Shown one piece after another: positions 1-51,027 of a stretch of 64,000 nt of DNA; the first letter of the stretch is position 1, and the number at the start of each line of letters is the position of its first letter. Source of the DNA: Eledone cirrhosa (taxonomy: Eukaryota). The notes below the pieces were generated by a model. The model had not been told where the DNA came from. It worked only from the letters and a program-made list of their open reading frames with translations, and ran no database searches. The stretch spans positions 239,010,001-239,074,000 of the forward strand of contig OZ024743.1 of NCBI GenBank assembly GCA_964016885.1, read 5' to 3'. The position numbers and the translations under genes were made by a program.

Positions 1-281
1 GTACTCCTGAGGAGAAGGGTTGCACACTTTTTTCGGGGGTGTGTGCGACCTCCCAAGGCGCCTCCTCCCTATTGAGGATTTTGTTATTAAATTTATTTTT
101 GTTATATTTTATATATTATTTTATATCTTGTTATTGCCTCCTCCTTATTGAGGACGCCTTTTTATGTAAACTCCCCCCATTGTACTTGTCCCCCTCTTTG
201 ATGCCCTGGTGGCAAATAAAAAGAAAGTTATCTATCTGTATGTAATGTCCTGGTGGTAAATAAATAGAAAGTTATCTATCT
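1..281 (+). mobile_element. 3' UTR/3' end of Tx1-like LINE (same family as 10096-15912 and 36186-41800), terminal ~45 bp duplicated
   Basis: Matches the 3' UTRs of the two full copies (ggttgcacac..ttcg..gtgtgcgacc hairpin; gtaaactccc..tgtacttgtccc..ccctggtggcaaataaa), followed by tatctatc and (TATG)n. Confidence 0.9.
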
Positions 282-844
282 GTATGTATGTATGTATGTA
301 TGTATGTATGTATGTATGTATGTATGTATGTATGTATGTATGTATGTATGTATGTATGTATGTATGTATGCATGTATGTGTGTGTGTGTGTGTGAGTGTG
401 TGTGTGTGTGTATACATTCTGCTCGCTCCATTCAGCTAATCTTTTTGTAGAATAAATCAGCATTTTGTGCTAGATTAAGGTAAAATGTAGCCGTTGGAAA
501 TTAAAGATCTATAAGGCTTTCATATTCTAACCATGAATGATCATTTCTATGTTTGTTGATTTCGTCAGTAATATATATTTCGTAATGTTATGCTTGTTTG
601 AAAGAAATGTCTTAATTTTCAGTTAAGAATGAAAGAGAACAAGTGATGATAGAGTGATGATAGAGTATGTATGCATGGTCCCGTAACTCCTGGTAGATTC
701 GTACCGGTACCGCATTGACATACGGAATTTTAAGACTGGTGGAGCCCATCCCTCTCCAGGCCTGAGTACAGCAGATTTCTTCCAGAGAAAGATAGAGAGA
801 GGGGGGAAATGAGAAAGAAATATAGAGGAAGAATCGAAACTCAG

Positions 845-1343: not shown

Positions 1344-1992
1344 AATATATATATATATAACTGTGTGTGTGTGTATGATAAAAAATGACAAACACAGAGA
1401 TAAAACAACGCTTAGTGTTATTAAGTTGACGCTTTGAATGAAAGAGAGAAAAGAAATTGAACGTGCCGCATGTTTGTCGTTTATCGTCAGGACAAGAAAA
1501 TAATAGATGGATTAGAAAATAAAATAAAATAAAAGAGACCGTGGGGGGGGGGGGGGGGGGGGGCATCCGAGTGTGTGAGTGTGTTGTTTTTAATTTCTTG
1601 TGTGTATCATATATAATATATAAAGGCAAAGCCAGTATTCGTACAAAACAGACTAGATGACGAGAAAAAGTTTTTGCTAGAAATAGCAGTCAATTTAAAA
1701 TCGTCCTTCATCTGAACAGATATAGGAGCAGTTTATATTTTTATATAAAAAAATTAGTCATCTCAATGAATAATATATATATAAGTATGTATACGTACAT
1801 ACATATATGTATACAGACGTACAGTAGTATGTATATATATATATACATACATGCACGCATATATATATATGTACGTATGGATTCACCGAATATTTATTAT
1901 AATGCTAAGTGTCTTTGTAAACAAACATCCCGAATTAAGCCGTACAATGTCTAGCAACCATCGTTGCTCATTTGTTCAACACTGACAAAGGA

Positions 1993-2035
1993 ACGCTGTA
2001 CTAGTTTCAAGCTTATTAGCTATCGTCAGCAACGT
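1993..2035 (-). ncRNA. Minimal type I hammerhead ribozyme
   Basis: Minus strand: acgttg-CUGACGA-u agcu aaua agcu u-GAAA-cuag-UA/cagcgu. 6-bp stem I, 4-bp stem II, palindromic ACUAGU stem III. Confidence 0.85.
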
Positions 2036-2427
2036 ATACCTTCCTGCCAGATGATTGAACGTCTGAAAGTTTATACTTTCCTTATGCATAATAACGGCTG
2101 AGCAGCCAAATTTGCATATCGAGTGAGTTAATCGGCCGGGCACCGAAAACGATAAACGGAAAAAATGAAACGAAATTTCATTTCCCACTCTTAGTACGGC
2201 TGTTACTTAAATATAAGTATGTATACGTACATATATATATATATGTATACAGACGTACAGTAGTATGTATATATATATACATACATGCACACCTATATAT
2301 ATATGTACGTATGGATTGACAGAACATTTATTATAATGCTCGGTGTGTTTGTAAAAAAAACATCCCGAATTAAGCCGTACAGTGTTTAGCAACCGTCGTT
2401 GCTCATTTGTTCAACACTGACAAAGGA

Positions 2428-2470
2428 ACGCGGTACTAGTTTCAAGCTTATTAGCTATCGTCAGCAACGT
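2428..2470 (-). ncRNA. Minimal type I hammerhead ribozyme (tandem copy, one stem I mismatch)
   Basis: Same core as 1993-2035, 435 nt away on the same strand. Confidence 0.8.
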
Positions 2471-2878
2471 ATACAGAAACTAGTACAGAGTTCCTTTTTC
2501 AGTGTTGAACAAATGAGCAACGATGGTTGCTCGACACTGTACGGCTTAATTCGGGATGTTTGTTTACAAACACACCGAGCATTATAATAAATGTTCGGTG
2601 AATCCATACGTACATATATATAGGTGTGCATGTATATATATATATACATACTACTGTACGTCTGTATACATATATATATGTATGTACGTATACATACTTA
2701 TATTTAAGTAACAGCCGTACTAAGAGTGGGAAATGAAATTTCGTTTCATTTTTTCCGTTTATCGTTTTCGGTGCCCGGCCGATTAATTCACTCGATATGC
2801 AAATTTGGCTGCTCAGCCGTTAATATGCATAAGGAAAGTATATACTTTCAGACGTTCAATCATCTGGCAGGAAGGTGC

Positions 2879-2921
2879 ACGTTGCTGACGATAGCTAATA
2901 AGCTTGAAACTAGTACAGCGT
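2879..2921 (+). ncRNA. Minimal type I hammerhead ribozyme
   Basis: acgttg CTGACGA tagctaataagctt GAAA ctag TA cagcgt. Confidence 0.85.
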
Positions 2922-3423
2922 TCCTTTGTCAGTGTTGAACAAATGAGCAACGATGGTTGCTAGACATTATACGGCTTAATTCGAGATGTTTGTTTACAAA
3001 CAAACCGAGCATTATAATAAATGTTCGGTGAATCCATACGTACATATATATATGTGTGCATGTATGCATATATATATACATACTACTGTACGTCTGTGTA
3101 CATATATGTATGTACGTATACATACTTATATATATATTATTCATTGAGATGTAATATATATGACTGACTAATTTTTTTATATAAAAATATAAACTACTCC
3201 TATATCTGTTCAGATGAAGGACGATTTTAAATTGACTGCTATTTCTAGCAAAAACTTTTTCTCGTCAACTAGTCTGTCTTGTACGAATACTGGCTTTGCC
3301 TTTATATATTATATATGACACACACAAGAAATTAAAAACAACACGCTCACACACTCGGGGGCGACCCCCCCCCCCCTCGCGGTCTTTCGTAATGTATAGG
3401 ACTGACTAATTTATATATATAGG

Positions 3424-9324: not shown

Positions 9325-9845
<521 letters not shown>

Positions 9846-10003
9846 CTTTAATTTCAACATTGTTTAAAGATGCTTGAATTTTCAATTTTCCTTGAATTCT
9901 TTCATCTTGTCACATCGGCCATCACTGTATCTCATTTTATATAAAGTCAATTACAATTAGTTCGCCTAAAACATATGCACTAAATTTCGAATACCTCATT
10001 TTG

Positions 10004-10095
<92 letters not shown>
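10004..10095. repeat. (CTAT)n microsatellite, 5' flank of Tx1-like LINE
   Basis: Direct reading. Confidence 0.95.
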
Positions 10096-10321
10096 GCTGT
10101 CGTCTGTTCTACAGCGTAGATGTAATTCACTTCGCGCAGAAGTTTTGTTCCAATTTATTGCGGAAATTTTGTAAGTTCAATTTTAATTTTGATACTATTG
10201 TGTAGCTTGACCCCCCGTCTGAACTGTCAGGCGGTGGGTTAGCTCATCTTCGACCCATCCTAGGGGTGAAAAACCTGTTTTTAAAAATTTTGTGGCATAA
10301 AATTTCAATCGTCTGACAGAA

Positions 10322-12250
10322 ATGTTAAACGAACCTAACGAAAATAGTGGGGGGGTGGCAGCGGTAAGAGTTGTAAGCTCGCACGCTTTTGTCCCCCCTT
10401 CCTTCCCAACTAACGTCATAGAGAAGGAAAGAAAAAATAAAATAAAAACAAACGAATGTGCGGAGAAAAATGACGAAAGCACAAATCTGGACATTGATTC
10501 CAACAACAACAAAAATTTGAAAAATTGCATGACAATATTAATACCACAAACAAAGACACAACAAACACAAAAATAACATTTGAAAACAACATCATAACAG
10601 AAAGCAAAGCAGACGACAAAGTCAACACCAATAATATTTCATTTGCACAAACAACAAAGAAATCTTTGACATATATACCTGAAAATATTTCAGATGTGGC
10701 ACAAAGAATTAAAAACGCCAAACAATACATAACTCAAGGGGAAAATGGTATTTTATCGGTAAAAATGCCTCAAGAACTCACCAAAGACATTGAAAGTCGG
10801 ACGGTTGTTTTCCGCACCATCAACAACATTTCTAAAAAACCTCAACAACCAACACAAACAGAAATCAAAGCAGTACTTACAGAAGTACTGAATGAAACCA
10901 CTTTCATAAGAAGAGACAGACTGTATGGAAGCCTAGCGATTATTATGAAGAACGAATCGGCGGCAAAAAAATATGCTTTGTCGCCGATTCGTTCGACAAA
11001 TTTTACTTTTTATCCATCTTATATGGGTAAAAGAACTCAGCGCATATGGCTGGATGCGATGATGCCAGATGTGGACTACTGCTGGCTCATAGCTGGCTTC
11101 ATCGATCCAGCGAATGACAACGTGATTTCCATTGGGAAAACCACAGGCAATGGGTTCAGTGGAACAGGTATAGAACTTGTAGTGCAAATGAAGCCTGAAC
11201 GAATTGCCCAAATACCCGACAGAATCCTATTAGAGGGCCACGGGTATATACACATTAGCGTGGAGGGGAGAAGGCCGTCCTGTCATATCTGTGCAGGCAG
11301 AGGGCACCTGACGGCGGCTTGTCCCCAACTCAACAAAAAGAAAACCCTGCTACCAACGCCAGCTCCACCATCACCACAACAGATAAACAAACAACAAAAC
11401 TCAGTCCCACCCAACCCGTCCCTCAGTAAAACTACACCACCACCACAACACAAACAGTCACAACACATTACCCAAAAACAAAACACAGTCCCACCCAACC
11501 CCTCACTCAATAAAACAACACAACCACCGCAGCCACAACACACAACACAGTCTAACATAGTGACATCCATCTCCCCCACAAAGAAAACCAACACAAACAT
11601 TACCAGCAAACATACCTCTTCCCTCCAACACTGAAGATAACCCAACGAATTCGGAGGAAGAAACGGAGTCCTTCAGACAGATTAAAAGGAAAAAAAGAAA
11701 ACATGTGCAAAACACACAAGGCCAAACAACCCCTACCCAAATGTCAACACAATCCAACAAAACACAAAACACCCCTCCAGCAACAAACAAAACCAAACCT
11801 GCCCCTCCCCTCTTCGAAACACTCACACCATCCGAAAAAAAGACATTACACTATACTTACATCAACAGAAACAATAATAAATTAAATGAACTCATAAACA
11901 ATAACCCTTCGGTACAAACCGAAGGTGTAAACTTTGTTTCTTCAGAAAACTACCCACATTTAAAATTAATAAAGATCCCAATGAACCTCTACCAAAAACT
12001 AAAAAAAGGATTTTAAGGAGGACGTAGGACCACCCTCTGTCAAACCCATAAACCGCGTCCTACTAAAAAGCTTTCCCCGTCCCCTTCCCCTCCCCAACAC
12101 AACTCCAAACACCCCAACCCCACCACACACTGACGAACCCACACCACCACAAGACACCCCTTCACCCAACACCCCCGACCCCATGGAAGTCGTGCGACCC
12201 GAAACACGGGAAGCAGAAAGGCAGGTCTCTACACTCTCCTTTGGCTTTGC
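10322..12250 (+). pseudogene. Tx1-like ORF1 (frameshifted; main ORF 10525-11634)
   Basis: SFAQTTK motif, CHICAGRGHLTAAC zinc knuckle, Pro/Thr/Gln-rich tail; collinear with 39859-41661. Confidence 0.85.
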
Positions 12251-12257
12251 CGCCCAC

Positions 12258-15200
12258 ATGGATGTGTTAAGAGTAGGATGTTTGAATGCACGTGGCCTAG
12301 GCTCAACTTGGAAGCAAGCAAAGCTTCTAAATGACCTCAGGTCACGTGGTATAAATGTAATGGTTATCTGTGAGACTCGTATCAGCGTCGTGCGTCAGCT
12401 GGACCCTACCTTCGATGACTTTGAGGTGCATGCATCTTTCTGTCAACCTGAAGGTGGGGGTGGGGTTGTCGTACTGATGGAAAAACACATGGGTCTCGCC
12501 GTACAGGTTGTTCACTCGCACCCGGAGGGTCGTTTGTTGGTGCTAGACGTTGACAGTAGTGAAGGTGCGGCCTTGAGACTGGTCGCCGTCTACTCCCCTT
12601 TCGGAGCTGAACGACCCGACGTCTTCCAGCGTCTGGAGACTTTTCTGGGAACGTCGCGTTCCCTGCTTCTAGTGGGGGGATTGGAATCACATCCTAGATG
12701 CACGTTGGGACTATGCAGGAGCATGTCCTAATAGATGGGGGTGTAACAGCCTCAAGGGGTTACTCGACCGTTTTATCTTGGTCGATAGATATCGACTAGA
12801 TTTTCCAACTGTGCCAACCTGGATTGGACGAACCACAGTGGTCAATATAGATCGTACTTAGATAGATTCTTAGTTAGAAGTAAGGATAGGGACATATTAA
12901 GCTGTCCAGAAATGCTCACGGTTGGCTATACGGATCACAAATTAGTGACCTGCGTAGTCAATCTTGAGAAAACACATAAACAGGGTCCCGGTTACTGGAA
13001 ACTTAATTTGTCTTTACTGGCAAAAGAGACTTTCAGAAACCGGATTAGCAGATTAGTTAAGGAGAGGTTAACGGGTGCAATCGTCAACAACCGATGGTGG
13101 GCATCTCTCAAAAGAGAGATTAGAACAGAATCAATAAGTTATAGCAAGATGTTAGATGTCGATAGGAATAGAAACGAGAAAGAATTAACAGGTAAATTAG
13201 AAGAGGCAATCAAGAGCGAAGATGTGGCCAGAGTGCTGGCATCGAGGACGGCCTTGAGCCAGTTTTTCGATGCAAAGCACGAAGGCTGCGTCATTCGAAG
13301 TAAAATACGTGCTCTAGGTAATGAGGGGGCCAAAGCCGTTGGCTGGGCCCGCGTGACAGAAGCTAAGAGTGGAAATCAATCCACCATCCGGTCTTTGCAA
13401 GACGAGGATGGACGGGTAATCCGGGAACCTAAGCAGATGTGCGAGGCCATTCAAAGGCACTTTGCCCGATTATTCGGGGGAGGCGAGGGTCCGGGCGGGG
13501 ACGTGGATTTCGGTCCATAGCTCGACGGCCTGCCGCGTCCCTCGAGCGAAGAGGAAGAGTCCTGCGAGGGACCAATCTCGGCTGATGAGAGCGGGGATGC
13601 GTTGAGCCAATGCAACAGACGCAAATCTCCAGGTCTCGATGGTATACCTTACGAACTTTATTTGTCAATGCCGGTCTTCTTCTCCGAACTCCTCGAAGCG
13701 GTCTACTGCAATTGGCAGCAGAACGGGAGAATTCGTTGTTCTGTAGCCAAGGGCGTAGTCTCGCTGGTGAGGAAGGACGAGAACAAGGGGGATAGTATAA
13801 ATAATTATCGGCCCATAACTCTGCTAAACACAGAGTTAAAGATTTTGGCCAAGGTGTTAGCAAAGAGGTTGGCGCTTGTCGTAGGTGGCCTGGTGGGAGA
13901 TGCGCAGACATGTGCTATCCCATCCAGGGCCATTCACGATAACCTCCACCTCATGCGATACATCATAGAGAGAGTTGGCAACAAACCCTGCTTCGGTGGG
14001 GCCCTGATCAACTTGGATCAGTCTAAGGCATTCGATAGGGTCGACCATGGTTACCTGAATGCGGTGCTAGCGGCGGCTGGGTTTGGTCCTGTTTTCAGAG
14101 GCTGGATCACTGCCTTACATAGCAACCACATCGGTTCTAGGATCAAGGTGAACGGCTACCTTTCGAAGCCGTTCGAAATCACACGATCCATTCGACAGGG
14201 GTGCCCTCTCTACTCCCTTCTGTACGTATTGACTCTCGAGCCTTTACTGAGGAAGTTGGAGTTGTTGCAGGGTATCCCCCTGGAACCAGGATTGAGCAAA
14301 GCGGTGTCGGCCTACGCCGATGACGTAACAGTAATGGTATCGACCGACTCGGAGATCGAGGCGATCGGTACCTTACTGGAGGATTACGAAAGGTTGTCAG
14401 GAGCGAAACTGAACCGGGAAAAATCCATCGGGCTGCAACTCGGAACGTGGAGAGGCAGACCGATGCCTCCCGACGGTGTCGTCGGACACTGGACGGAGGG
14501 CCTGGTGAAGTTGCTTGGGGTCTGGTTTGGACCGGACCTCCAGGTGGAACAGAACTGGGACGAGGTTACGAACAAGGTGTTTGCACTAACCCAGAAATGG
14601 GCCAAGTGTAAGCTGTCTCTAAAAGGTTGGGCGGAGGTGACGAACATTTACATAGCGTCCGTCACTTACTACCGCCTGACTGTCGTGCCTTGCCCTAAGG
14701 AAATACTCACCACCATGGAACGCATGCTCTTCCAATTTCTTTGGAAGAAGCGCCCTCCTATGGTGAGAAGATCCATCTGCTGCCAACAACCTTCGAAAGG
14801 AGGGCTGGGGATGCCGTAGTTGATGATGCGTAGGCACGCATTAAGGCAACGGCACCTACAGGTATTCCTCACTGGTCAACCGGTGTGGGCTCCGTTCGTG
14901 AAACGAGCCTTTCCGAGACTCGTCTCGCTCACCGAGCTGCAGTCTTGGGTCAAGCAAAGATCCGGAAAACTGGGAGACTGGCACACTGAGTGTGCCCAGG
15001 CGCTCAGGGCTCTCTGGCAAGCGGGCCCGGCCATCGGTGGAGAATCCACCTCATCATTTATAGAGGGCTGGTGGCTAGCAGGGGCGATAACACCCTTGGA
15101 GAGTCGCTGGACATGGAAGAGGACGAACTGGCCAGCCTGTTCGGTAGGACTTTCGGCCCGGGACCAATGGACAACTTCCAGAAGTCACTAGCCTGGCAGT

Positions 15201-15695
15201 GCTACCGGGGGGCTCTACCCGTTCGAGAGAGGCTCTACAGACACGGGCGCCCGGGCAGGGATCCCTCGAAAAAGATTTGCCCTAGATGCGTGCGTCACGA
15301 AGAGAACCGTTGCGCACGCATTGGTGCAATGTCCGGGCATGGCTGATCTGTGGGGCTACGCCGAACGACTGCTGTCGCGGGTGGCGCCGATTCGATTGAC
15401 CGCCGAGTCCGTGATGACTATCAAGCCGCCTCCCCTCTTCACAAAAGAAGCAAAGGCGGTTTTTCTGTGCGTAATAGCCATGTTGAAAGAGGTTGTTTGG
15501 TGGACACGATTGAAAGGTCTGAGGTCAGGTAACTTCCTTTCTGGCCATAGTCTGGTCTACTTCTTCCGATATTACTTCGGAAGAAGGATAAGAATGGAGA
15601 GAGAGGTGCTTGGCCACAGGCAGTTTTATGAAGGGTGGGTGAGAGTGGCGAGAATGGCTCGTGTAAATGGGCCTTCTCTGTCTACCATCCTGTGA
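12258..15695 (+). pseudogene. Tx1-like ORF2 (APE endonuclease + RT), several frameshifts/stops
   Basis: CLNARGL, ICETR, TDHKLV, GYWKLN, KSPGLDG, NYRPITLLN, DQSKAFDRVDH, IRQGCPL, AYADD, GGLGMP, CPRC..HALVQC. Confidence 0.95.
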
Positions 15696-16098
15696 GTAAA
15701 GAAGTAAAGGAGAGGGGAGCACCTTCTCCATGTGCTCCCCGGGCAAAGGATTGCACACTTTTTCGGGGATGTGTGCAACCCTCATCACGTCCCCTCCCTT
15801 TTGAGGTTGTTTTCGATTATTTTCATTTTATACCCTTTTTACTCGGTTTTATGTAAACTCCCTCTTTGTATTTGTCCCTTCTTTTTATGCCTTTATGGTA
15901 AATAAAGAAATATATCTATCTATCTATCTATCTATCTATGAACTGTTATTGGAATTTGTGCTGTACAAACATACACACGTGGCAAATATATATAGATAAC
16001 TATAGATAGGTTTACGATCAGGCAGACGGATACAAAGAGGTAGATAGCTATAGATAGCTATTTCTTGAGCACTGGCCATCTCGTCAACAGTCGTGTTA

Positions 16099-17109
16099 TC
16101 TATACATATATATAAAACTGTAGTTGTCTGTGTGTGTGTCCCCCTCATTTTTGCAAAGTCTAAACAAATCCACATTTCAACTCCGATTGACTTCAAACTT
16201 GCATTTATATATTCCTTGCGGTCTAAAGATATTAACTGCAGCTTTTATTTTTCAATTTTCTATTGTTAAAGGGGTGTTAGGCGCGGGTCATCGATCTCCA
16301 TCGCGCTCTTATAATATGTCTGTATTTCTGGCTGTCTGCATTACGGCATTATGACAAACATTGATGACGTATTATATTCACTATTTTCCGTTCATTGCCA
16401 GGTGTTTAAACTTTGATCTGTTATTTTAATATATAATATAAGCGAGGCAAGCCAGCCCAGTTGCCACTTCTTGCCAATAAACATTAACCCATTGTGCACC
16501 ATTCATCTAACTGTAGACCAACAACGATGGCGAATGAATCTTCGAGGTAAGCAGTTTCCTCCCGAGCTGTTACTTCACATGGGATTCTCTGCTACACCTT
16601 TTCGTAATAATACCGAACAACGTACTGCTGGTCACTCCTTCCTCCAAAAGCCGTACAAAGCGAACATATGCATCGGGAAGATGGATCGCGTGAAAATCTA
16701 CACCAGGTCTACGTGAGAAATTCTCAAGGGACTGCACTGAGAGGGATAGAGAGAAAGAGTAACTTAGTGACAAGAGTGCGAATGAACTTTTGAGGTAAGT
16801 AGCCTACGCCTTACTGCTATGACACTGGAACCTTCTGCTAACTTTACCTGTGACTTTCTCTTTCACATTTACTCCAAAAGGCCAAAACAGAGGAGTGTAA
16901 AAAGAAGGGGCTCAACAATATTTCTATGAACAATGCACGTAGACAGCTAAACTGTACTTTCAACTTCTTAATTTTCCCCAAATAAAACAACTTTCCTGTC
17001 GGTATATTTTCGTGAGTTTTTAACAGGCACTCACAAATAAACGTTTCTCATTGGAGGTGCTATTACCAATGTTTGTTCTTACCCGTGCAACGCCGGGATA
17101 CACTGCTAG
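16099..17109 (+). mobile_element. Non-autonomous Helitron
   Basis: 5' A|TCTATACATATATATAAAA; subterminal hairpin cccgtgcaacgccggg (17082-17097); 3' CTAG|T; internal blocks shared with 33.8-34.7 kb. Confidence 0.75.
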
Positions 17110-22718: not shown

Positions 22719-25680
22719 TTAAGGCAGAATGGAGAAGGACAGAATGGAGAAGGCGTTTCCCCGGAGGACGGCAAGGGAGACGAGCTGGGAAAGCGACTCC
22801 AACTCGCGGGGCTCACACCTGCGGCTGGCCAGCTCAGCGCCTATGGTTGTGAGTAAGGAGGTAGCCCTGGGGCCGAGGACACCAGAAGTCTCCAGTGCCA
22901 GGGGTACGACCGCAAAGCTGTCGGAGAGCGACCGGTATTTGAGGAGTTTGGCCCCCTCAGCCCGACGTGCAGCCGAACCTGGGTCAGTCGCAGACTGCAC
23001 CAGGTTGCAGCTGCAGAAAGGCTTGGTGCAAGTGGCATCCCAGACGAGGGTTTTGCCACCGCCGAACGCGAAGATGGTCATGCCATCTGGCCTTTTGCCG
23101 TCCCCTCCAGCACCACCGGCTCGAGCTGGGAAGGGAAGCCTGCAGCATGTCCAAGCCATGCTTAATGACCACGTTGAGGGCAGCATGGCGTGAATGCGGC
23201 CGACACTGTGGCGACAGGAAAGCGGATGGAGGCCGAAGGAGTCCACGGTGAAACCGCAGGGACATTGGTGTGACTGGCAGATCCGGAGGCCGAGCCTCAG
23301 GGAAACACTGATGCGCAGGCTATGGTTGTCTAGCTGCGTGCCAGTGGAGGAGGAGGGCAGGGCATGGAGCCAGGCACCACTGTGGGGTTTGGAGGCTGCA
23401 CGAAAACAAGCAAGGCGGTGCTAGTCGAGCAGGCTGCACTGGATGGCATCCCAAGTGCGTTGGGGGGACATGACGTCAACAGGGGGAGAAGGAGGAGGGA
23501 CGTCTAGTGGGCTAAGTCCCAGACGGTCCCACGTCTCACAGGCGGCCTCACGTTCTCTGAACACAGAGGGTTCTGTTGTGTTTTGAAGAACCCTTCTGAC
23601 GAGGACGCGGCATTAGGTTACCGACGAAAGATACGCCGGCAAAGCTAGTGAGATCGGGGACCGGAAGCCAAGGCCGCCATACCTGACAGGTAAAGTGGCC
23701 TGTTGCCACCCTATGTCGTCAAACTTGACGTTGCTTATCTCCTCGGCTGCTGTTCGGATACAAGTATCGAGGTCAGCGAGGAGAGATGTCTGGGTGTAGC
23801 ACGGAGCACTGCGGAGTGTATAGAGGAGCTTCGGCATGGCGAAGCAGTACCTCAGCAGAAAGAGAGCTGGGTGGCCGTCAATCAAGCCCAGTCGGCTCGT
23901 GAGAGTCTCGAGCTGTTGAAGCCTGGAACTGATGGTGGAGCGGATGGCCGGTGGGTGGATCGGTGACCCGGGGATAATGTCATCCTCTTTGGGGGTCACC
24001 TGAATCTGGCGGAGAATGGCCGCACGTCCAAGAAGGAGGCTGCAAAGCTCGCAGCATCGAGGCTGACATTCACCACCTCCGACTTAGCCGAGTTGACCAG
24101 GATGCCGATTCTCGCCAGGGCAGGAACCACCGATTGAAGGTCATGGCAGACCGACCGCACGGGCCTGCCTAACGTAGCATCATCCAGATACCAAACGTTG
24201 AAAGGGGCCGTGATACTCCGGGCGATGTGGTCAATACCAAGGGCGAACAGGAGGGGTCCCAAATAGTCGCCCTGTTGGATCCCAGTAGCCGAGAGTATGA
24301 CCGTATCAGCAGCAAGGAGCATGCTCGGGGCTCCATACGACAGGTAGGCCAGTGGGTAGGCAGAGGGGGCGGCTGAGGCAGGCTTCGAGCAGATGATCCC
24401 GGCGTAAAGAGTTGAAGGTATTCCACATGTCAAGCTTGACAATGAGGTTCCTGGAGTCCCTGGATGCCGGTTCCGATGGGCAGCTGTTGAAGAACTGCCT
24501 GGTTGCATGAGCGGCCCCCTCACAGCCAGCGGACACGCCGAAACCCAGTTGCATCGGACTAAACTCCTCACCCAGCTCGTGTGTTACGGAGTTGCAGATC
24601 ACCTTGGCAGTCAGACTCCGGAAGACATTGCCCACATCAATGGGGCGTATGCCACCGTCTTTCTTCCTAAGAGCGGAGAAACTGGCCGAAAAAAAGAGGC
24701 CTCGGGCGTAAGGGTCCAGGGCGCCATCGATGAGCCTATTGGTGAGCACCACAATTGCTAGCTGTGAAAGACCTGATAGCGGACATGATGTCTGCATCAG
24801 AAGCCACAAGGAGCAAGTGGGGGTCGGGTGGGGGTATGGTCTGAGATCAGTGGGTGGCTCATGGTGTTTGAGTCGCAGAGCAGCCAGGACCTCCTCGGTG
24901 GGTTGGAGGACAGTGTCCTCTGAGGCAACAACTCTGACTGCGGCCGAGACATCACCCATGATAAGCTTGGTGTTTACCTGGTCACGCAAACGCTTGGCGC
25001 TGGCCTCGGAAGTGGAAGATAGGGGTACCCGAGGGTGGCGTGTGTGGCTCCCTGGGCACGCTTGGAATGGGCCTTCGCCCAAAAGACGAGACGTTGGCCT
25101 TGACGAAGGCTGCTGTTAGCCAGCCGCCGCGGTCAGCGCCAGAGCTGGGGAGGCCGAGAGCGAGTGGGGCGAAATAGAACAGCCGCTCCCAGTCACTGGT
25201 TCGATTGGAGTCCAGGGCGCTCTCAATCGAGGAAGTGAGGGCATCGGCTACCGGCACCCCTGCCGCTCTCGGGATCCTGTGTGGGATCTTCCGGAGCCTC
25301 CTAAGCCGAGCGATGTTGACCAGCGAGGCTTGGGCGCCAGGCAAGCTCGCTGTCCCTGCTGGTGGTGTGCCAGACGGCTATTGCTGGGAAGACGTGGGGA
25401 AGAGGCAGCTCCTGCACCTCCACGCTGCGAGGGCATTGGAAGCTCGACGAGTCATGCTAACGCAGATGAGGTGGTGGAAGCAGCCGCACCCAAACAGTCC
25501 CCCCCCCCTTCCGTTTATTAGTGGAGCTGCCAGTGCTGCAGGTGTCGGCATGGAGGAATGGGGGAAGGGCGTGGGGCCGGAGACTGGGGATCGAGCGGCA
25601 TCAGGGGTGGGTGGCTGGCGTGTGTCGGTGGAGGGGAAAGTGCTAGTAAGAGGGCCTCATAGCTCACCTATATATATATA
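22719..25680 (-). mobile_element. CRE-clade-like non-LTR retrotransposon (RT + RLE endonuclease), frameshifted
   Basis: RKKDGGIRPIDVG, QLGFGVSAGCE, KLDMWNTFNSLRR, QQGDYLGPLLF, WYLDD, LPVRYGGLG, Cys/His motif (FGLHPLSC), GKRPDG..WDAT RLE motif; GC-rich island. Confidence 0.9.
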
Positions 25681-26140
25681 GAGATGTCAGAAAATAAGAA
25701 AGAAATGAAGGTGCTGCATGGAGGAGGACACAGAGGAAGGTAGAAAGTTAATAAATGAATGAGTGAATGGATGAATGTATAAAAAAGGGAGGTGACAGGC
25801 GGTTGTTCCCAGCGGAAAGACACAGAGTTCAGCACGCACACATGCGAGCAGCTTAGTAGTTTGTCATAGGACCTTGTGGCTGGAGGTGAGTCACTGATGC
25901 TGGGGTTGGCTTCCTCTTGTTAATGGTAGAGTTGTTGTTAATGCCACTGTTCTCGTCGTTGCTTTCCTCTTGTTAATGGTGAAGATAGCTGGTGAGATGT
26001 TGATCTATACACATGTGTGTTGTTGATGCTAATGTCACAGTTGTTGTCGTTGCCTTCCTCTTGTTAATTGTGATGGAGATGAAACTGCTACCAAGTCGGG
26101 CTCCTCTTTTACCGAAGATGCGGGGTCGATGTTATTATCC

Positions 26141-26314
26141 TGGCAGTATCGGTAGAGGGTCGGACACCATGCTTTCCAGCATAGTTACGTCCCTTTACAA
26201 TCTGAGTTCAAATCCCGCCGAGGTTGACTTTGCCTTTCATCCTTACGGGGTCGATAAAATAAAATACCAGTAATGCACTGGGTAATTGCTGGCCTTGTTC
26301 CTAAAGTAGAAACA
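26141..26314 (+). mobile_element. SINE family A with TSD gttattatcc(tg)
   Basis: A box tggcagtatcggtag, B box gagttcaaatccc, 3' end agtagaaaca; direct repeat at 26131 and 26315. Confidence 0.9.
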
Positions 26315-26399
26315 GTTATTATCCTGTTGCTGTCGCTTTCTTGACCGGAGATGCGGGTCAGTGGCTTTCGGCATCATCTGGCAGCACAACGGCAAATAA

Positions 26400-27465
26400 A
26401 TATATTCTCTATTTTTTTTTTTTGTCTTTTCTTTCTCTCTGTCTAATCCCATTCAAATTATTTGGCAGTGAATTAGTGGTCAGTTTTGTTTTGTTTTGTT
26501 TTATGTTTCCATTTGTTTTTATTTATTTCTCTCGCTCCTCTCGTATGTTTCGGTGCGTTAAATTTGTGAGGTTCCTAGCAGTTATTATTTGAGGTTATAT
26601 TTCCATTCTAGGGTGTATTCCACCATAACAGCACATACTGCTTCCCAGCATCATGGATTAAACTGTGAGTTAATGCCGCGAATGTTTGACTATTGGGTAA
26701 TCAGATAGTCCAAGCGTATAATCATCAATGTAGATATCGATAGAGTCTAGTGGATTTGAGAATGTGTTAGAAGTGATGAAGCAGCGTGGTAAATGTTTAA
26801 GATAAACATTCATTAACTCAAGAGGGTTGGTATCTGATGCAGGCAAATTTCCTTCATAGACGTCAGGATCAACATCTTTATGGGCTTCGCGTGTTGAGTT
26901 ACGTATGGCGAACTATAATGTTTAATAATTCGCGACTAGTATAACAGCTCTTTACGGCTCTCATTCAATGGGATGAAAAAGCCTGTAAATGGGTATACTT
27001 GCTCCAAGGAATGGCATAATATTAGCATAGCACATACATATATACACATACATGTATGCCCACGTACATATGTGTGTTGGTATGTCAAATACACACATAT
27101 ATGTGGGGAGCAACGCGCGTTGGTTTGTTTTTAATTTTTATTTCTTCTCTCTTTCTAATCCTATTCAAAAAAATTATTTAGCATTGAATTGATGGTCGTT
27201 TTTTTTTTTGTCCCCCTTCCTTTTATTTTGTTTCTTTCTCTCGCCCTTCGCGTAAATTTTGGTGCGTTATATTTGTGAGGTTCCTATCAATGGTTAATAG
27301 CATTTATTATTTGTGGTTATGTTTCCATTCTAGGATGTATTCCACCATAGCAGCACATTCTGATTCCAGGAATCTTGTATTAGACAGTGAATTAATGCCG
27401 CGAATGTTTGGAACGCAAAAGTATTTGAGTAATGGGTAATCCAAGAGTAAGATCATCAATGTATG
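26400..27465. repeat. Diverged direct duplication of ~330 bp (26400-26730 / 27125-27465)
   Basis: Shared blocks such as atttgtgaggttccta, tttccattctagg.tgtattccaccata and ttaatgccgcgaatgtttg. Confidence 0.8.
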
Positions 27466-33539: not shown

Positions 33540-34562
33540 CGTTGATTCGCTCTCTCTCATGAACCTGTTATTTTTATCTAAAGACATTTTTTCCAATTCC
33601 ATCCCGCCCGTTTTTTCCAATTCCATCCCGCGAAACCCATGGCGAGTGTTCCGGGTATGCTTGTGTATGTACGTATATGGATGCGTGTATGTATATATTT
33701 AATTTCAATTACCTTTGTATTTTATTTACTTTATTCTTAACTCTGAAGCCGAGAATCATTCGGTTTCCTAAATAGGTTTTTAGTCTACGACTTCAGTTAT
33801 ACCATTTACGTGGTTTTGTCTTTGCGTGTAATTGTTCTCATTGCACCACATAATGACGTATTATCTTCGTTTTTTCCGTTCATTGCCAGAGAACGTCTCC
33901 ATGAACCACCTAATGGAATATTAGTCTACGACTTCATTTATACCATAAACGTGGTTTTGTCTTTGCGTGTAATTGTTTTCACTGCTCCAAATAATGACGT
34001 ATTATCTTCGTTTTTTTTTCCGGTCTTTGCCAGGGAACGTTTCCACGAACGAAAGTATCGTCTTCCTGTCTTCCTTCAGTTGCAACGTTTTTTGAAATAT
34101 TTACTTCTGCGTTCACAGGTTGCCTTTTTTTAGTTTCAGAAGATCCCGTTAAGGGTAAAAGCAGCGATTCTTTGCCTAAACTTTAATCTGTTATTTTAAT
34201 ATATATATAGATAGAGAGAGAGAGAGAGAATGTCTGTTTGTCTGTCTGTCTGTCAGTCCAATTACTAAAACTCGAGAACCACCCAACCGAGTTTTTTCAA
34301 ACTTTACACATGTAATACTTATGTCCCCGTCAGTGTTTTGAGTAAAAACAATTTCAAATTTTCAATGCCCTCGGGACCGCATTAGTCGATTTAGCGATTT
34401 CTCTCTATAATTCTTAGTCTTTCTCTTTTTAGATAGATACATAAATATAACGTTGCGTCTTTATAATATCTGTCTGTATGCCTAGCTGTCTGCATTACGT
34501 CATTATGACGCGGTGTATGTGTGTGTGTGTGTCTGTGTGTATATATGTATATATATATAGTG

Positions 34563-34596: not shown

Positions 34597-34720
34597 GTGT
34601 GTGTAACGTATAACGTATTTCGAAATATTTACTTCTGCGTTCACAGATTTATTATTTTAGTTTCAGAAGATCCCGTTAAGGGTGAAAGAAGCGATTCTTT
34701 GCTTAAACTTTAATCTGTTA

Positions 34721-34792
<72 letters not shown>

Positions 34793-36131: not shown

Positions 36132-36185
<54 letters not shown>
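36132..36185. repeat. (GATA)n microsatellite, 3' flank of minus-strand Tx1-like LINE
   Basis: Direct reading. Confidence 0.95.
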
Positions 36186-36186
<1 letters not shown>

Positions 36187-36416
36187 GTTTCTATTTATTT
36201 GCCACCAGGGCACAAAAGAAAGGGACAAATACAAGGGGGGTGGGGAGTTTACATACAATAAAACGAGTACAAAAATATAACAAATAAAATAGAACAATCG
36301 AAGTCCTCAATAGGGAGGGGACGTTTTGTGGTCGCACACACCCCCGAAAAAATGTGCAACTCTTCTCCTTGGGAGCTCAAAGAGAGGGCACTCCCTTCTT
36401 CCTCTACCTTTTTCAC

Positions 36417-39400
36417 CTACAGGCTGATATATAGAGAAGGCCCATTCACACGGGCCATTCTCGCCACTTTCACCCACCTTTCATAAAACTGGCTGGGGTG
36501 GAGCACCACTCTCTCCATCCTGATCCTTCTTCCGAAATGGTATCAGAAGAAGAGAGCCAGTTGTTGACCAGAGAGAAAGGTGTCTGACCTCAGCCGTTTC
36601 AATCGCGTCCACCATATAACCTCTTTCACCATGGCTATTACGCACAGAAACACCGCCTCTTCTTCATTTTTGAAGGGGGGAGGCGGCTTGATCGTTACAA
36701 TGGATTCGGTGGTCAACCGGATTAGTCCCACCCGTGACAGCAGTCGTTCGACATAGCCCCACAGATCGGCGATGCCCGGGCACTGTACCAATGCGTGCGC
36801 AACAGTTTCCTCGTCGCGCACGTATCTGGGACAGATCTTTTTCGAGGGGTCTCTACCCGGGCGCCCGTGTCTGTAGAGCTTTTCTCGAACGGGCAGAGCC
36901 CCTCGGTATCACTGCCAGGCCAGGGACCTCTGGAAGTTATCCATGGGTCCCGGGTTGAATGTTCTACCGAACAGGTTGGCCAGTTCGTCTTCCTCCATGC
37001 CTAGGGCTTCTCCAAGGGCGTCGTCGCACCTGCGGCGCACCAGCCCTCTATAGAATGTCGAGGTGCAGTCTCCACTGAAAGCTGGGTCCGCCCACCAGAG
37101 AGCCGTGAGGGCCTGGGCACACTCGGTGTGCCCGGTGCCCAGTTTTCTGGGTCTTTGCTTGACCCAGGATTGCAGCTCAGTGAGTGAGACGAGTCTCGGA
37201 AAGGTTCGTCTCACAAACGGCGCCCACACCGGTTGACCGGTGAGGAATACCTGGAGGTGCCACAGCCTTGATGCGTGTTTACGCATCAGCAGCCACGGCT
37301 TCCCCAGCCCTCCTTTCGAAGCGTGTTGACAGCAGATGGATCTCCTCACCAAAGGTGCTCGCTTCTTCCAAAGGAATTGGAAGAGTGCGCGTTCCAATTT
37401 GGTGAGCGTCTCACTTGGGCAAGGCACGACGGTCAAGCGGTAGTAGATGACCGACGCTATAGAAGTGTTCGCCACCTCCACACGACCTTTCAGGGATAGT
37501 TTGCACTCGGCCCACTTCTGGGTCAGTGCAAACACCCTGTTCGATACCTCACCACAGTTCTTCTCCAACTGGAGGTCTGGTCCAAACCAGACCCCGAGCA
37601 ACTTCACCGGGCCCTCCGTCCAGCGTCCGACGACGCCATCGGAGGGCATCGGTTTGCCCCTCCATGTGCCGAGTTGCAAACCGATCGACTTGTCCCGGTT
37701 CAGCTTAGCCCCTGTAAACCTTTCATACTCCTCCAGTAAGGTGCCGATAGCCCCGATTTCCGAGGTGGTCGACACCATTACTGTTACGTCATCGGCGTAG
37801 GCCGACACCGCTTTCCGCAATCCCGGTTCCAAAGGGATGCCCTGCAACAACTCCAACTTCCGCAGCAGTGGCTCGAGGGCCAATATATGCAGAAGAGAGG
37901 AGAGAGCGCACCCCTGTCGGATGGACAGCATGATTTCGAACGGCTCCGAGAGGTAGCCGTTCACGTTGACTCTAGAGCAGATGCGGCTGCTGTGCATGGC
38001 AGTGATCCAGCCCCTGAAAACGAGTCCGAAACCTGCCGACGCTAGCACCGCATCCAGGTAACCATGGTCGACCCTATCGAAAGCCTTAGGGAATGAACCC
38101 GCCAAAGCCTGGTTCATTCCCTACCCTCTTTATGATGTATCGCATGAGGTGGAGGTTGTCGTGAACGGACCTGGACGGGATAGCACCTGTCTGCGCATCT
38201 CCCACCAGGTCCCCATGACAAGCGCCAACCTCTTTGCTAACACCTTGGTCAAAATCTTTAAGTTAAGAGTTATGGGCCTAACATTGCTAATCTCACCCCT
38301 TGTTCTCGTCCTTCCTCACTAGCGAGACTACGCACTTGGTCACAGAACAGGGAAATCTCCCGCTCTGTTGCCAGTTTCAGTAGACCGCCTCGAGGAAATC
38401 GGAGAATAAGTCCGGCATAGCTAAATAAAGTTCGTATGGAAAACCGTCGAGACCCGGGGATTTGCGTTTGCCGCATTGGCTCAGCACGTTCCCTATTTCA
38501 GCGGTTGAAATCGGCCTCTCGCAGGACTTCGCCTCCTCGTCCGAAAGACGAGGCAGGCCATCGAGGTATGGACCGACGTCTTCATCCCCATCCGGCACCC
38601 GCCTCTCCCGAACAATCGGGCAACGTGCTTTTGAAAGACCTCACACATCTGCTTAGGTTCAAGGATCACCCGTCCATCCTGGTCTCGCAAAGACCGGATA
38701 GTTGATCTAATCCCTCTTTTGGCTTCTGTCACGCGGGCCCAGCTAACAGCTTTGGTTCCCTCGTTTTCTAGCGCACGTATTTTGCTTCGGACAGCGCAGC
38801 CTTCGTGCTTCGCGTCAAAGAACTGGCCCAAGGCCGTTCTCGACGCTAGCACTCTGGCCACGTCGCCGCTTCTAATTGCCTCTTCTACACTATCTACCAA
38901 CTCCCTTTCCTTCCTATTTCTATCTGAGGCTAACTCCTTACTAAATCCTATTGAAACTACTCTAATCTCTCTTTTTAGAGATCCCCACCACCTGCTGTTG
39001 ACGATCGCTCCCGTCAACCGCTCCATAACTAAAGTACTTATCCCGTCCCTGTACACTTTACTTGTCGGTAAGGACAAGTTCAGTTTCCAGTAACCGGGTC
39101 CCTGTCTATGGGTTCTATCAATGTTGAGTATGCAGGTAACTAATTTGTGATCCGAATAGCCAACCATGAGCATTTCTGGAGAGTTTAAAATGTCCCTATC
39201 CTTATTTCTAACTAGGACCCTATCTAGGTACGACCTAGATGATCCGCTGAGGTTTGCCCAAGTCCAGGTTGACGCAGTCGGAAAATCTAGTTGATATCTA
39301 TCGGCCAGGTCAAATTGGCCGATTAACTCCTTCAGGCTGTTACACCCCCCTCTATCGGGACAAGCCCCTACATAGTCCCAACGTGCATCTAGGATACCAT

Positions 39401-39830
39401 TCCAGTCCCCCACTAAAAGCAAGGAGCGGGACGTCCCCAGAAAAGTCTCCAAACGTTGGAAGAAGTCCGGCCGCGCTGACCCAAAAGGGGCGTATGCGGC
39501 GACCACCCTAAAGGCTCCGCCTTCACCACTGCCAACGTCTACAACCACTAGTCGAGCCTCCGTGTCCAGGTGTACCGTCTGTGCGGCGAGACCCAGATGT
39601 TTTTGAAGCACAACGACAACCCTAGCCCCACCTCCAGGCTGACAGAGAGATGCGTGCATCTCAAAGTCGTCAAAGGTGGCGGCCAGCTGGCGCACGCTGC
39701 TGATCCGGGCCTCGCAAATGGCCATCACATTTATACAGTGGTGTGACCTGAGGTCATTTAGAAGTTTTGCTTGCTTCCAATATGAGCCCAGGCTACGCGC
39801 ATTTAGACAAGCCACTGTCAATACAGCCAT
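36417..39830 (-). pseudogene. Tx1-like ORF2 (APE + RT), disrupted
   Basis: CLNARSL, VGDWN, SYLDR, SDHKLV, KSPGLDG, KAFDRVDH, IRQGC, AYADD, HALVQC. Confidence 0.95.
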
Positions 39831-39858
39831 GTTGGTGGTAAAGAGAAAAAGGAGGCGC

Positions 39859-41661
39859 CTACCTCACTGCGTCCCGGGGACCAGGCCGCACAATTTCCAT
39901 GGGGGTGGGGGAGGGGTTGTTAGGTGGGGTGGAGGTTTGTGCTAGTGTGGGGGCATCAGTGTGTGGTGGGGTTGGGGTGTTTGGAGTTGTGTGGGTGTTT
40001 GGGGAGGGGGTGGGGAAATGTTTTAGGAGGATGTGGTTAATGGGTCCGACGCAGGGGGGCTCCACATCCTCTTTAAAATGGTCCTTTAATGTTTTGTATA
40101 TGTCCCTTGGGACTTTTATCATTTTGAGGTGGGGTAAATCCCCTGCTTGGGTGAAGTTAGGCCCTTCGGTTTTTACCAAATTGTTATTATAAATAATGTT
40201 CAACAGTTTTTTGTTTCTTGTGTTTATGTATGTGTATGCATATTTTTGTTTTTGTGTGGTGTTTTTGTCTTGCTGTTGTGTGTTCTTTTGTCTTGATGTC
40301 TGTGTTATGTTTTGGGGAGGGGTTGTTTTTATTTGTGTGCCTGAGGTGTGTTTTCTTTTCTTTCTTTTAAATTTTTGGAAATACTCCCCCTCGTCTGACG
40401 ATGAACGGGGGTCGTCTTCCGTGTTGGAGGGGAGGGGTACATTTTCGGGTAGTGTTTGCGTTGTGGGAGTTTTGGAAATTGTTTTTTGAGTGGGGGGGGA
40501 TGGGTTGGACAGTGTTTTGTTTTGTGTTAACTTGTGGGTGTTGTTTTTGTAGTGGTGGTGGTGGTGATTGTGTTGGTTGTGTAGTTGTTGGTGGTGTGGG
40601 CAGCATTGGAGTTTTCTTTTTAAGTTGCGGACAGACAGCCCTCACGTGACCTCTGGTTCCACAGAGGTAACAGGAGGGCCGCCTACCCTCAACAGTAATG
40701 TTTATAAAAGTTTGGTCATCAAGTATGACGCGTTTAGGGATCTGGGCGATCCTTTCGGGCCTCATTTGAACTAAAAGTTCGAGACCCGTTCCACCGAACG
40801 CGTCGCCCGATGCCTTTCCCATGGATATTAATACGTCATCGTTCAGGTCAAGAAAACCTGTTAACACCCACCATATGTTCATAATTGGAAGAATGGTGTG
40901 TATTTTTATTTTCTGTGTCCTTCTACCCATGTACGTATGGTAGAAGGTGTATGAGGTGGATGTAATAGGTTTTACCGAAAGTTTTTTTTACGTGTCCTGG
41001 TCCTTCATGAGAATGGATAGACTCCTATAGAGTCTATCCTTTAGTATGAACAGAATGTCTTTCATTACATCTTTTAAGATCAGCTCTATCTCACTCTGTC
41101 ATGGTTGAGCTGGTCTTTTCGTTTTATTTAACACTATCCTAAACATCACTGTGTTTAGGACTCTCTGACTTTTTAGTTCCGAGGGGCGGGAGAGTGGATC
41201 GAAAATGATCCATTTTCCCTGTATACTATGTATTTTATGGCTTCTGCCAGTAGCTCCTTAGCGTTGCTTATGTCTACTGGCAGGTATTTAAGGTTTTTTT
41301 TCGCAGTTTCGGCAAAGGAAATCTTTCCATTATCCTTGTACGCGTTGTTTTCTTTTTCGTTGCTTTTTTCTATTTTTTTTCTGTTTTCTTTGTCCTTGTT
41401 GATGTTGTTTTGCAGTTTCTGTGTGTTTGTGTTGGTGTTTCTGTCGTTTGTATTTTCATACAATTTCATGTTAACATTTTTTGGGTTTTTACCCACATTT
41501 TCACAATTTACAGTAGAAACATTATGCATAATCGTATTTGAAAGTGAGAGGGGGAAAGTTTCAATTACATTCATTTGTTGTTCCTTTCTCTCACTTTCGT
41601 CAGGGGCCGTGGCAGAGTTGTTGTTCATGTCATCCATTATTGACATATACCTCAACAACAT
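39859..41661 (-). pseudogene. Tx1-like ORF1, disrupted
   Basis: SFAETAK motif, VEGRRPSCYLCGTRGHVRAVC knuckle. Confidence 0.85.
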
Positions 41662-41994
41662 TTTTTAAAAGGTAGTCTACAAACTTAGGCGGGAGGTTAA
41701 TTCACACCGGGACACAAAATACAAACAAACACTTATTGTTAGCACGTAAAATATTCCAAAAAGACAGGAGCTGAAGTTACCTACGTCTATACCATCCGAG
41801 GATAGATAGATAGATGGATGGATAGATAAATAGATGGATGGATAAATAGATAGAGGGATGCATACATACACATATACATAGAAAGATAGATAAATTGATA
41901 TGTACTTTTATTCATATCTTTCTGTCTATATACATTTTTATATGCATGTATATATATATATATATAGATATATTTTAAACATATATATATATTA

Positions 41995-42567: not shown

Positions 42568-42692
42568 TTATATATATATATATGTATATATGTATATATA
42601 TATACTCTACTTACTATACTTGCTTTCATATTTCGCCTTGCTCCTCCCCTTTTCTCATTGTATTTGTATATAAACATAGATACAAGAAGAAA

Positions 42693-46808: not shown

Positions 46809-46817
46809 GGACATTAT

Positions 46818-46991: not shown

Positions 46992-47084
46992 ATTATTATT
47001 AATATTATTATTATTATTATTCTCTAAATTCTTACATCAAACTAAAATATGTTGACAATCTTTTAATAATGTTTTGCTTAACTA

Positions 47085-50782: not shown

Positions 50783-50784
50783 AT

Positions 50785-50960: not shown

Positions 50961-51027
50961 ATTATATATATATATATATATATATATTTATTAAAATAAC
51001 AGATTTTAGTCTTCAAATTTATTATTA

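What the first reader, a model, noticed from the sequence alone, without database searches (positions are those of the whole stretch)
10004..15939. Tx1-like LINEs apparently site-specific for (TATC)n/(GATA)n microsatellites
Seen: both full-length copies have (TATC)n, in element orientation, directly at the 5' and 3' ends (10004-10095/15913-15939; 41801-41853/36132-36185). The 3' end at 1-281 also runs into tatctatc. There is no poly(A) tail. The two full copies are clearly divergent subfamilies, so the pattern is not one duplication. Established: the Tx1 clade includes sequence-specific APE LINEs, with Kibi and Koshi in TC/TTC-type repeats, Keno in U2 and Mutsu in 5S. Inference: this is a GATA-repeat-targeting Tx1 lineage; I do not recall one being described.
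Basis: partly seen in the sequence, partly recalled or inferred. Interest (0 to 1): 0.75.

Follow-up and report, generated by a model that had tools for sequence, protein, structure and literature searches.

The report
LINE family targeting GATA microsatellites
A young jumping-gene family with over 1,500 copies in this probably octopod genome sits in one fixed direction at TATC (GATA) repeats and duplicates the site it lands in, likely because its DNA-cutting enzyme recognises that repeat; repeat-seeking relatives are known, sister families here sit in ATT repeats instead, and I found no report of a GATA target.

Summary
Confirmed. Both window elements are APE-type LINEs (78% identical) with (TATC)n at both ends. 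Of 1,562 exact 3' ends of the first family, 1,519 are followed by [A/C]TAT, 1,239 by [A/C]TATCTAT, 134 by TA runs and none by poly(A). The repeat is mostly the target, not a tail: in 60 unselected copies, 26 have informative target duplications (mostly 16-23 bp) starting at TC^TATCT, some outside any array. 8 of 16 truncated copies have TATCTAT upstream (background under 1%); 4 of 16 show nothing. Copies stack, and 24 of 40 unselected (TATC)5+ arrays abut one. TATC subfamilies form one clade; the nearest sisters here sit in (ATT)n, which suggests a target switch. Intact copies are 99.7% alike. Nicking by the endonuclease and priming on read-through repeat are inferred, not shown. Tx1-clade membership is likely but was not tested against named references. 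Microsatellite targeting is known (Kibi, Koshi); ten literature searches found no GATA target, but Repbase could not be searched. This scan reported the same family earlier on other DNA of this genome, and a similar one in another genome.

The parts
10004..10093 (+). (TATC)22 array at the 5' junction of copy 1: left part of the split target
10091..15912 (+). Copy 1: full-length APE-type LINE, 5.8 kb, decayed (mean 95.6% to 35 other full-length copies)
   Evidence: both ends defined by comparing 60 genomic copies
10270..12221 (+). ORF1 of copy 1, two frameshifts; CCHC knuckle and Pro/Thr-rich C-terminal part (643 codons open in intact copy L067)
   Evidence: no Pfam hit
12225..15695 (+). ORF2 of copy 1 (APE endonuclease, RT, C-terminal zinc motif), interrupted by stops; 1,156 codons open in L067
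15886..15912 (+). 3' terminus: predicted 4-bp hairpin with 5-nt loop, AATAAA, then six bases; no poly(A)
15913..15939 (+). (TATC)6 at the 3' junction of copy 1: right part of the split target; the duplication lies in pure repeat and cannot be measured here
36132..36185 (-). (TATC)13 at the 3' junction of copy 2
36186..41800 (-). Copy 2: full-length copy of another TATC subfamily (76% ORF2 identity to the copy-1 family); ORF1 41409-39862 and ORF2 39854-36420, both frameshifted
41801..41853 (-). degenerate (TATC)n array at the 5' junction of copy 2
1..228 (+). 3' end of copy 3, a full-length 6.2-kb element of a third subfamily that begins before the window, stacked behind a fourth copy
229..288 (+). 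16-bp direct repeat beginning TATCTATC (229-244 and 273-288) around a 28-bp second 3' end (245-272): a very short truncated insertion with its duplication, or a tandem duplication
   Evidence: 44-bp period, 93% match

Best explanation
This is a young, likely Tx1-type LINE lineage whose copies sit in one orientation at the motif TC^TATCTAT, mostly inside (TATC)n/(GATA)n microsatellites, with 16-23-bp target duplications and no poly(A), likely because its APE endonuclease nicks the GATA strand and reverse transcription starts from that nick. Shown: junction sequences, orientation, duplications, absence of poly(A), stacking, intact young copies, one TATC clade beside (ATT)n sisters. Inferred: (1) first nick on the GATA strand at about 5'-AGATA^GATA-3', uncertain by 0-3 nt; (2) AATAAA lies only 6-8 nt before the element end, so the RNA would run on into the flanking repeat, and pairing of its UAUCU with the nicked strand would set the exact tail-free junction; (3) second nick 16-23 bp downstream; (4) each insertion leaves repeat on both sides, which later copies reuse, giving stacks; (5) the TATC preference arose once, by a switch from an (ATT)n-targeting ancestor.
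For: 3' ends genome-wide: 1,519 of 1,562 [A/C]TAT, 1,239 [A/C]TATCTAT, 0 poly(A). TA runs take 134, although (TA)10 ends number 1,860,434 against 5,141 (TATC)5 ends. First 60 copies by position: 0 in GATA orientation; TATCTAT within 35 nt upstream in 40 of 44 full-length and 8 of 16 truncated copies, background 0.47-0.75%. 26 of 60 have informative duplications, 22 of them 16-23 bp; target letters: T at -2 in 25 of 26, C at -1 in 22, TAT at +1..+3 in 26, C at +4 in 21, T at +5 and +7 in 26 (L091 and L092 are one duplicated event). L062, L094 and L116 have at most one TATC at the 3' junction, all of it inside an 18-bp duplication, so no repeat tail was added. The last element base (A or C) follows subfamily, not target. 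20 of 60 have another copy's 3' end within 300 nt upstream. 24 of 40 unselected (TATC)5+ arrays abut a copy in the same orientation; the only opposite-strand hit was 28 nt long. Intact ORF1 and ORF2 in L067, L076 and L093, 99.6-99.7% alike. TATC families form one clade (UFBoot 100) with ATT family S2 as sister (99).
Against: No enzyme assay and no empty allele. 4 of 16 truncated copies (L072, L083, L085, L110) have neither repeat nor duplication upstream; 11 of 60 gave no duplication and 23 only an uninformative pure-repeat match. Of 35 copies whose 3' flank leaves the repeat within 15 nt, only 21 repeat those letters at the 5' side (17 of 26 full-length, 4 of 9 truncated). In ATT family S2 the 5' (ATT)n is often not mirrored at the 3' side (L353, L359, L362), which points to repeat carried on the RNA. 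Junctions cannot separate endonuclease choice from RNA-DNA pairing. The position of ATT family S1 is weakly supported (69 and 28), so the direction of the switch rests mainly on S2. The 60 copies all come from the first 133 Mb of one chromosome and one subfamily group.
Confidence: 0.82

Rival explanations
1. The endonuclease is only loosely specific (AT-rich DNA with alternating T). The TATC preference comes mainly from pairing of a co-transcribed (UAUC)n RNA end with the nicked strand, which selects among nicks.
For: No poly(A) in 1,562 ends although AATAAA is present. The invariant target letters downstream of the junction are those an RNA tail would pair with. TA runs are accepted (134 of 1,562). 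ATT sisters seem to carry repeat at the 5' end. PMC1950540 (passages) argues that APE enzymes read DNA shape more than sequence.
Against: Letters upstream of the junction, which the RNA tail would not pair with, are also conserved (T at -2 in 25 of 26, C at -1 in 22 of 26), though partly because most targets are arrays. TA arrays are hundreds of times commoner and would pair over 3 nt, yet are rarely used. Twelve positions in the first 245 residues differ in a fixed way between five TATC and two ATT families.
Confidence: 0.12
2. The repeat is part of the element (head and tail, like the repeat tails of L2/CR1 elements) and insertion is close to random; the element creates the arrays.
For: 14 of 35 testable copies lack the duplicated unique letters; 4 of 16 truncated copies have no repeat upstream; 24 of 40 long arrays abut an element.
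Against: Truncated copies cannot carry a head, yet 8 of 16 have TATCTAT upstream (binomial p about 1e-13 against 0.75%). Duplications start at TAT in the 5' copy too, including non-array targets with no added units (L062, L094, L116). 16 of 40 arrays are free of elements.
Confidence: 0.04
3. Insertion is unbiased and copies only survive or accumulate in microsatellites, or the pattern is an assembly artefact at repeats.
For: PMC3812793 (passages) gives passive accumulation as the likely reason for Drosophila Waldo-A/B near CA repeats.
Against: Base-exact phase and one orientation (97% of 1,562 ends; 0 of 60 reversed), also in copies 99.7% alike; ordinary-sized duplications with unique letters; far commoner TA arrays nearly unused.
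Confidence: 0.02

Closest known systems
Kibi (TC)n and Koshi (TTC)n, Tx1 clade, teleost fish; crocodilian Tx1 families in (TTCC)n/(TTTC)n (PMC4494074, passages and section 15 read; PMC3812793, passages)
   Same: APE-type non-LTR element that inserts into a microsatellite with a pyrimidine-rich top strand; related families use related repeats.
   Different: Target is TATC/GATA here, with sisters in ATT; host is likely an octopod; no poly(A).
   Same: The best-scoring labelled relatives of ORF2 are elements lying next to U2 (392-466 bits) and 5S genes (313-351 bits), against 177 bits for human L1 ORF2p.
   Different: About 30% identity only; the lineage forms its own deep branch with unnamed 38-45% relatives; it targets a repeat, not an RNA gene.
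Xenopus Tx1L (PMC4494074 and PMC1950540, passages)
   Same: Site-specific APE; duplication of similar size (23 bp for Tx1L, recalled).
   Different: Tx1L targets the transposon Tx1D.
Waldo/Mino (ACAY, AC; R1 clade) and Dong (TAA) (PMC3812793, passages)
   Same: Microsatellite as a safe landing site, with stacking possible.
   Different: Other clades and other repeats; Dong uses a restriction-like endonuclease (recalled).

Membership tests
L1-group APE LINE | ORF2 with N-terminal APE endonuclease and non-LTR RT | tested here: met
   PF03372 (33-238) and PF00078 (523-766) above cut-off; aligns to human L1 ORF2p over residues 7-866, E=3.6e-51, ahead of R2 proteins
L1-group APE LINE | 3' poly(A) tail, as in mammalian L1 | tested here: not met
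   0 of 1,562 ends with A7 within 3 nt; 0 of 60 by inspection
Tx1 clade | Two ORFs; ORF1 with CCHC zinc knuckle; C-terminal zinc motif in ORF2 (feature list recalled) | tested here: met
   Cx2Cx4Hx4C seen in ORF1 (no Pfam hit); zf-RVT E=8e-6, 26.9 bits, just under the 27.5 cut-off
Tx1 clade | RT groups with named Tx1 families to the exclusion of L1 | tested here: inconclusive
   No named Tx1 or L1 reference could be put in the tree. Bit scores favour U2- and 5S-adjacent elements over human L1 about two-fold. The midpoint-rooted tree puts the lineage on its own deep branch.
Tx1 clade | Insertion into a specific multicopy target (Kojima's criterion: over 20% of flanks) with target duplication | tested here: met
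   79% of 1,562 ends followed by TATCTAT; informative duplications in 26 of 60; criterion from PMC4494074 passage
Tx1 clade | Endonuclease nicks the target specifically in vitro | not testable with these tools
   needs a nicking assay
Kibi/Koshi | (TC)n or (TTC)n target | tested here: not met
   1 of 60 ends runs into (TC)n (L068); 59 begin with TAT
Kibi/Koshi | Clusters with Kibi/Koshi in an RT tree | not testable with these tools
   sequences not held in any collection reached
RLE-type microsatellite elements (Dong/R4, CRE, Togen) | C-terminal restriction-like endonuclease, no APE | tested here: not met
   APE present; L1 ORF2p scores 177 bits, R2 proteins at most 75

The most novel reading that the evidence does not exclude
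An octopod LINE radiation switched its endonuclease from (ATT)n to (TATC)n within one genome lineage. It gave up poly(A) priming for priming on read-through target repeat, and it now occupies and multiplies most long GATA arrays of the genome. Intact sister enzymes 65-68% alike give a natural pair for mapping what sets APE target choice; one candidate is the hairpin tip, Ser205 in five TATC families against Ile or Met in two ATT families.
Probability: 0.4. Interest if true: 0.68.

Novelty: new variant of a known kind. Interest (0 to 1): 0.5.

Why it matters
How APE endonucleases gain and change sequence specificity is still open (PMC3812793 and PMC1950540, passages). Here intact, recently active sister families with different repeat targets coexist, so domain, loop and RNA-end swaps can test endonuclease against RNA pairing directly. 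The family also shapes the microsatellites of this genome: 24 of 40 sampled long GATA arrays abut a copy. GATA markers in this animal would therefore often have multicopy flanks, which is a risk for population-genetic markers (inference). The habit itself is known from fish and crocodilian Tx1 families, which limits the surprise.

Tried and rejected
Expression: no RNA holder listed, so nothing can be said. Empty site: laying four runs on 9800-16900 showed no joint skipping the element among the rows listed, but the unique 5' flank was covered in one run only and repeats were skipped, so the test was uninformative. Tails in other organisms: contigs of four runs coded as organisms B-E cover the 3' part of the element but are cut at the repeat. 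The metagenome scan gave 80 loci, 78 of them with only 24-34% identity and no loci of the 38-45% protein group to read flanks from; none showed TATC arrays. Cluster look-up gave no informative names for that group. A second homolog search for named Tx1 proteins gave only generic names. A pattern for the copy-2 end found 11 places, mostly other subfamilies at 83-89%. The wider list of 62 candidate truncation points (35 with TATCTAT upstream) was not used as the main count: its loci were chosen next to other copies, and it includes ends that only mark the limit of my references. The Fujiwara 2015 review is not held; supplements and Figure 3 labels of PMC4494074, which list targets of known Tx1 families, could not be seen and may bear on novelty. 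No structure prediction was run: it would not decide target choice.
Full report
OBSERVATION. The window is G000:C4:239010001-239074000 in a 3.0-Gb genome. The host is probably an octopod: the only close named ORF2 relative is an Argonauta hians protein at 67%; this is an inference. Copy 1 (10091-15912, +) has 22 TATC before and 6 after. Copy 2 (41800-36186, -) has a degenerate array before and 13 units after. The end at 1-228 runs into TATCTATC. The stretch before the window shows that this third copy is full-length, of a third subfamily, and starts on TATCTATC right behind a fourth copy. Copies 1 and 2 are 78.2% identical over 4,353 nt.

WHAT THE ELEMENT IS. Both window copies are broken. Among 35 unbroken full-length copies examined, L067, L076 and L093 have ORF1 (638-643 codons) and ORF2 (1,156 codons) open and are 99.6-99.7% alike, so the family moved recently. 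ORF2 has APE, RT and a C-terminal zinc motif. It aligns with human L1 ORF2p at 177 bits. ORF1 has a CCHC knuckle by eye. Metagenome relatives at about 30% identity include elements beside U2 genes (5 of 20 loci scanned) and 5S genes (2 of 20); these score 313-466 bits against ORF2. That favours the Tx1 side of the L1 group. No named Tx1 reference was available, and in the RT tree of 116 sequences the lineage and an unnamed 38-45% group form their own deep branch, so membership is likely, not proven.

3' JUNCTIONS. An exact 23-mer at the end of the copy-1 family occurs 1,562 times. Of these, 1,519 continue [A/C]TAT, 1,239 [A/C]TATCTAT, 134 [A/C]TATATAT and none A7 within 3 nt. The background for [A/C]TATCTAT is 0.02% per position. 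(TA)10 ends number 1,860,434 and (TATC)5 ends 5,141. The patterns are only roughly comparable and a TA array can count twice, but per array TATC is used about a thousand times more often (inference).

TARGET OR TAIL. I fetched the first 60 of the 1,562 ends by position, each with 6.3 kb upstream. 44 are full-length or nearly so (two, L075 and L078, assigned by hand because their 5' part comes from a related subfamily) and 16 are truncated. TATCTAT lies within 35 nt upstream of 40 of 44 and 8 of 16; background is 0.75% in the window and 0.47% in distal flanks. Of the other eight truncated copies, two have an 18-bp duplication starting at TAT in non-array DNA (L062, L094), one sits in a TA run, one has a single TATC at the junction, and four show nothing (L072, L083, L085, L110); these may be later deletions or insertions, which I did not test. 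Duplications were informative in 26 of 60, pure repeat in 23 and absent in 11. 22 of the 26 are 16-23 bp long. Their target reads T-A-T-C ^ T-A-T-C-T-A-T, with T at -2 in 25 of 26, C at -1 in 22, and T at +1, +3, +5 and +7 in all 26 (L091 and L092 are one event). L062, L094 and L116 show no added repeat unit. Against this, of 35 copies whose 3' flank leaves the repeat within 15 nt, 14 do not repeat those letters upstream (9 of 26 full-length, 5 of 9 truncated). Short duplications or a repeat head on the RNA could explain the full-length cases.

STACKING. 20 of 60 copies have another member's 3' end within 300 nt upstream. Of the first 40 distinct (TATC)5+ arrays on C1, taken without regard to elements, 24 abut a member in the same orientation (16 upstream, 19 downstream), several of them truncated copies; the only opposite-strand hit was 28 nt long.

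SISTER FAMILIES. Clustering 175 ORF2 rows from all fetched loci at 88% gave eight TATC-ended groups (73-85% to the intact protein; a ninth cluster is the frameshifted window copy) and two ATT-ended groups (65% and 68%). This is not a census, since the loci were chosen by my queries. S1: 30 of 30 ends run into ATT-type repeat; 14 of 20 fetched copies are full-length and all 14 have (ATT)n upstream, while two plainly truncated ones do not. S2: 30 of 30 ends in ATT; 18 of 19 5' ends were located and all have (ATT)n. In S2 the upstream ATT run is often not mirrored downstream, so repeat carried on the RNA is more likely there. In the ORF2 tree (one short TATC row, L304, left out) the TATC groups form one clade (UFBoot 100), S2 is its sister (99) and S1 is weakly placed; the RT tree agrees. 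The simplest reading is one switch from ATT to TATC. In the endonuclease, the residue aligned to L1 Pro197 at the hairpin tip is Ser205 in five TATC groups and Ile or Met in the two ATT groups. PMC1950540 (passages) ties that loop to target choice but stresses shape over sequence, so this is a lead only. All groups end in a predicted 4-bp hairpin before AATAAA whose outer pairs covary between families (the inner pairs were fixed by my search pattern). Such hairpins mark stringent 3'-end recognition in other LINEs (PMC3747384, passages).

MECHANISM. Established for the class (recalled): APE nick, then target-primed reverse transcription, then a second nick. Inferred here: the nick falls on the GATA strand at about AGATA^GATA; the RNA reads through AATAAA into the flanking repeat and pairs with the primer, which gives exact tail-free junctions; the second nick is 16-23 bp on; each insertion leaves target on both sides. 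The share of cutting against pairing is open.

WHAT IS KNOWN. Microsatellite-specific APE elements named in the texts read: Kibi (TC), Koshi (TTC), crocodilian Tx1 (TTCC, TTTC), Waldo (ACAY), Mino (AC) (PMC4494074 passages and section 15; PMC3812793 passages; PMC4640811 passages). The O. vulgaris repeat annotation lists 13 recently active L1-Tx1 families, and the words 'target site' do not occur in its main text (PMC13282606 passages). PMC10294476 (passages) gives no target either. Ten searches found no GATA/TATC-targeting LINE. Kojima and Fujiwara 2004, Fujiwara 2015, Repbase and the figure labels and supplements of PMC4494074 were not seen and could hold such a report. Earlier unreviewed notes of this scan describe the same family and the ATT sisters in this genome and a similar pair in another genome; they are not independent support.

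VERDICT. Real, and target-specific with high confidence. It is a new target variant of a known kind, with a testable sister-family switch. Interest 0.5.

Noticed in passing
window 22719-25681 (-): Decayed second kind of LINE: weak RT hit (E=3.6e-5, below cut-off) and a C-terminal part that looks like a restriction-like endonuclease of the CRE type (label by eye, recalled).
   Followed up: no
window 26131-26322, 46813-47021, 48881-49084 (-), 50782-50976, 52777-52988, 57813-58021, 59107-59315: Seven copies of a ~190-bp SINE-like repeat (86-96% alike). They end in a small hairpin with the same loop as the ATT families, then an ATT-like tail; likely moved by an ATT-targeting sister LINE.
   Followed up: partly
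L212-L261 (S1), L262-L291 and L353-L371 (S2): Two young sister LINE families in (ATT)n with intact ORF2; S1 gave 2,030 first-look candidates.
   Followed up: yes
G000:C1:168101478-168114287: Four family ends in one orientation, spaced 1.1, 5.8 and 5.8 kb: a head-to-tail array; several other 5.8-kb pairs appear in the same list.
   Followed up: no
L075, L078, L242, L249, L254: Copies whose 5' part comes from a related subfamily: recombinants or template switches.
   Followed up: no
L091 and L092 (C1:72.19 and 72.21 Mb): Two identical copies inside a short-period satellite that contains TCTATCTAT: one insertion duplicated later.
   Followed up: partly
L072:900-3150: Antisense fragments of another LINE kind (RTE- or Dong-like by eye) with ATT ends, lying between S1 and a truncated TATC-family copy.
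   Followed up: no
window 42682-43756: 1-kb purine-rich tandem repeat with 9/17/43/257-bp periods.
   Followed up: no
window 1773-3161 and 55783-57263: Two long TA-rich minisatellite tracts that match each other, partly inverted (84-90%).
   Followed up: no
window 33780-34050 and 34612-34740; 26412-26732 and 27125-27463: A 141-bp tandem pair with a further related piece nearby, and a 74%-alike local repeat pair.
   Followed up: no
P0004-P0074: About 70 unnamed ORF2 proteins at 38-51% identity, mostly from ENA assemblies, form the sister group of the octopod lineage; host and target unknown.
   Followed up: partly
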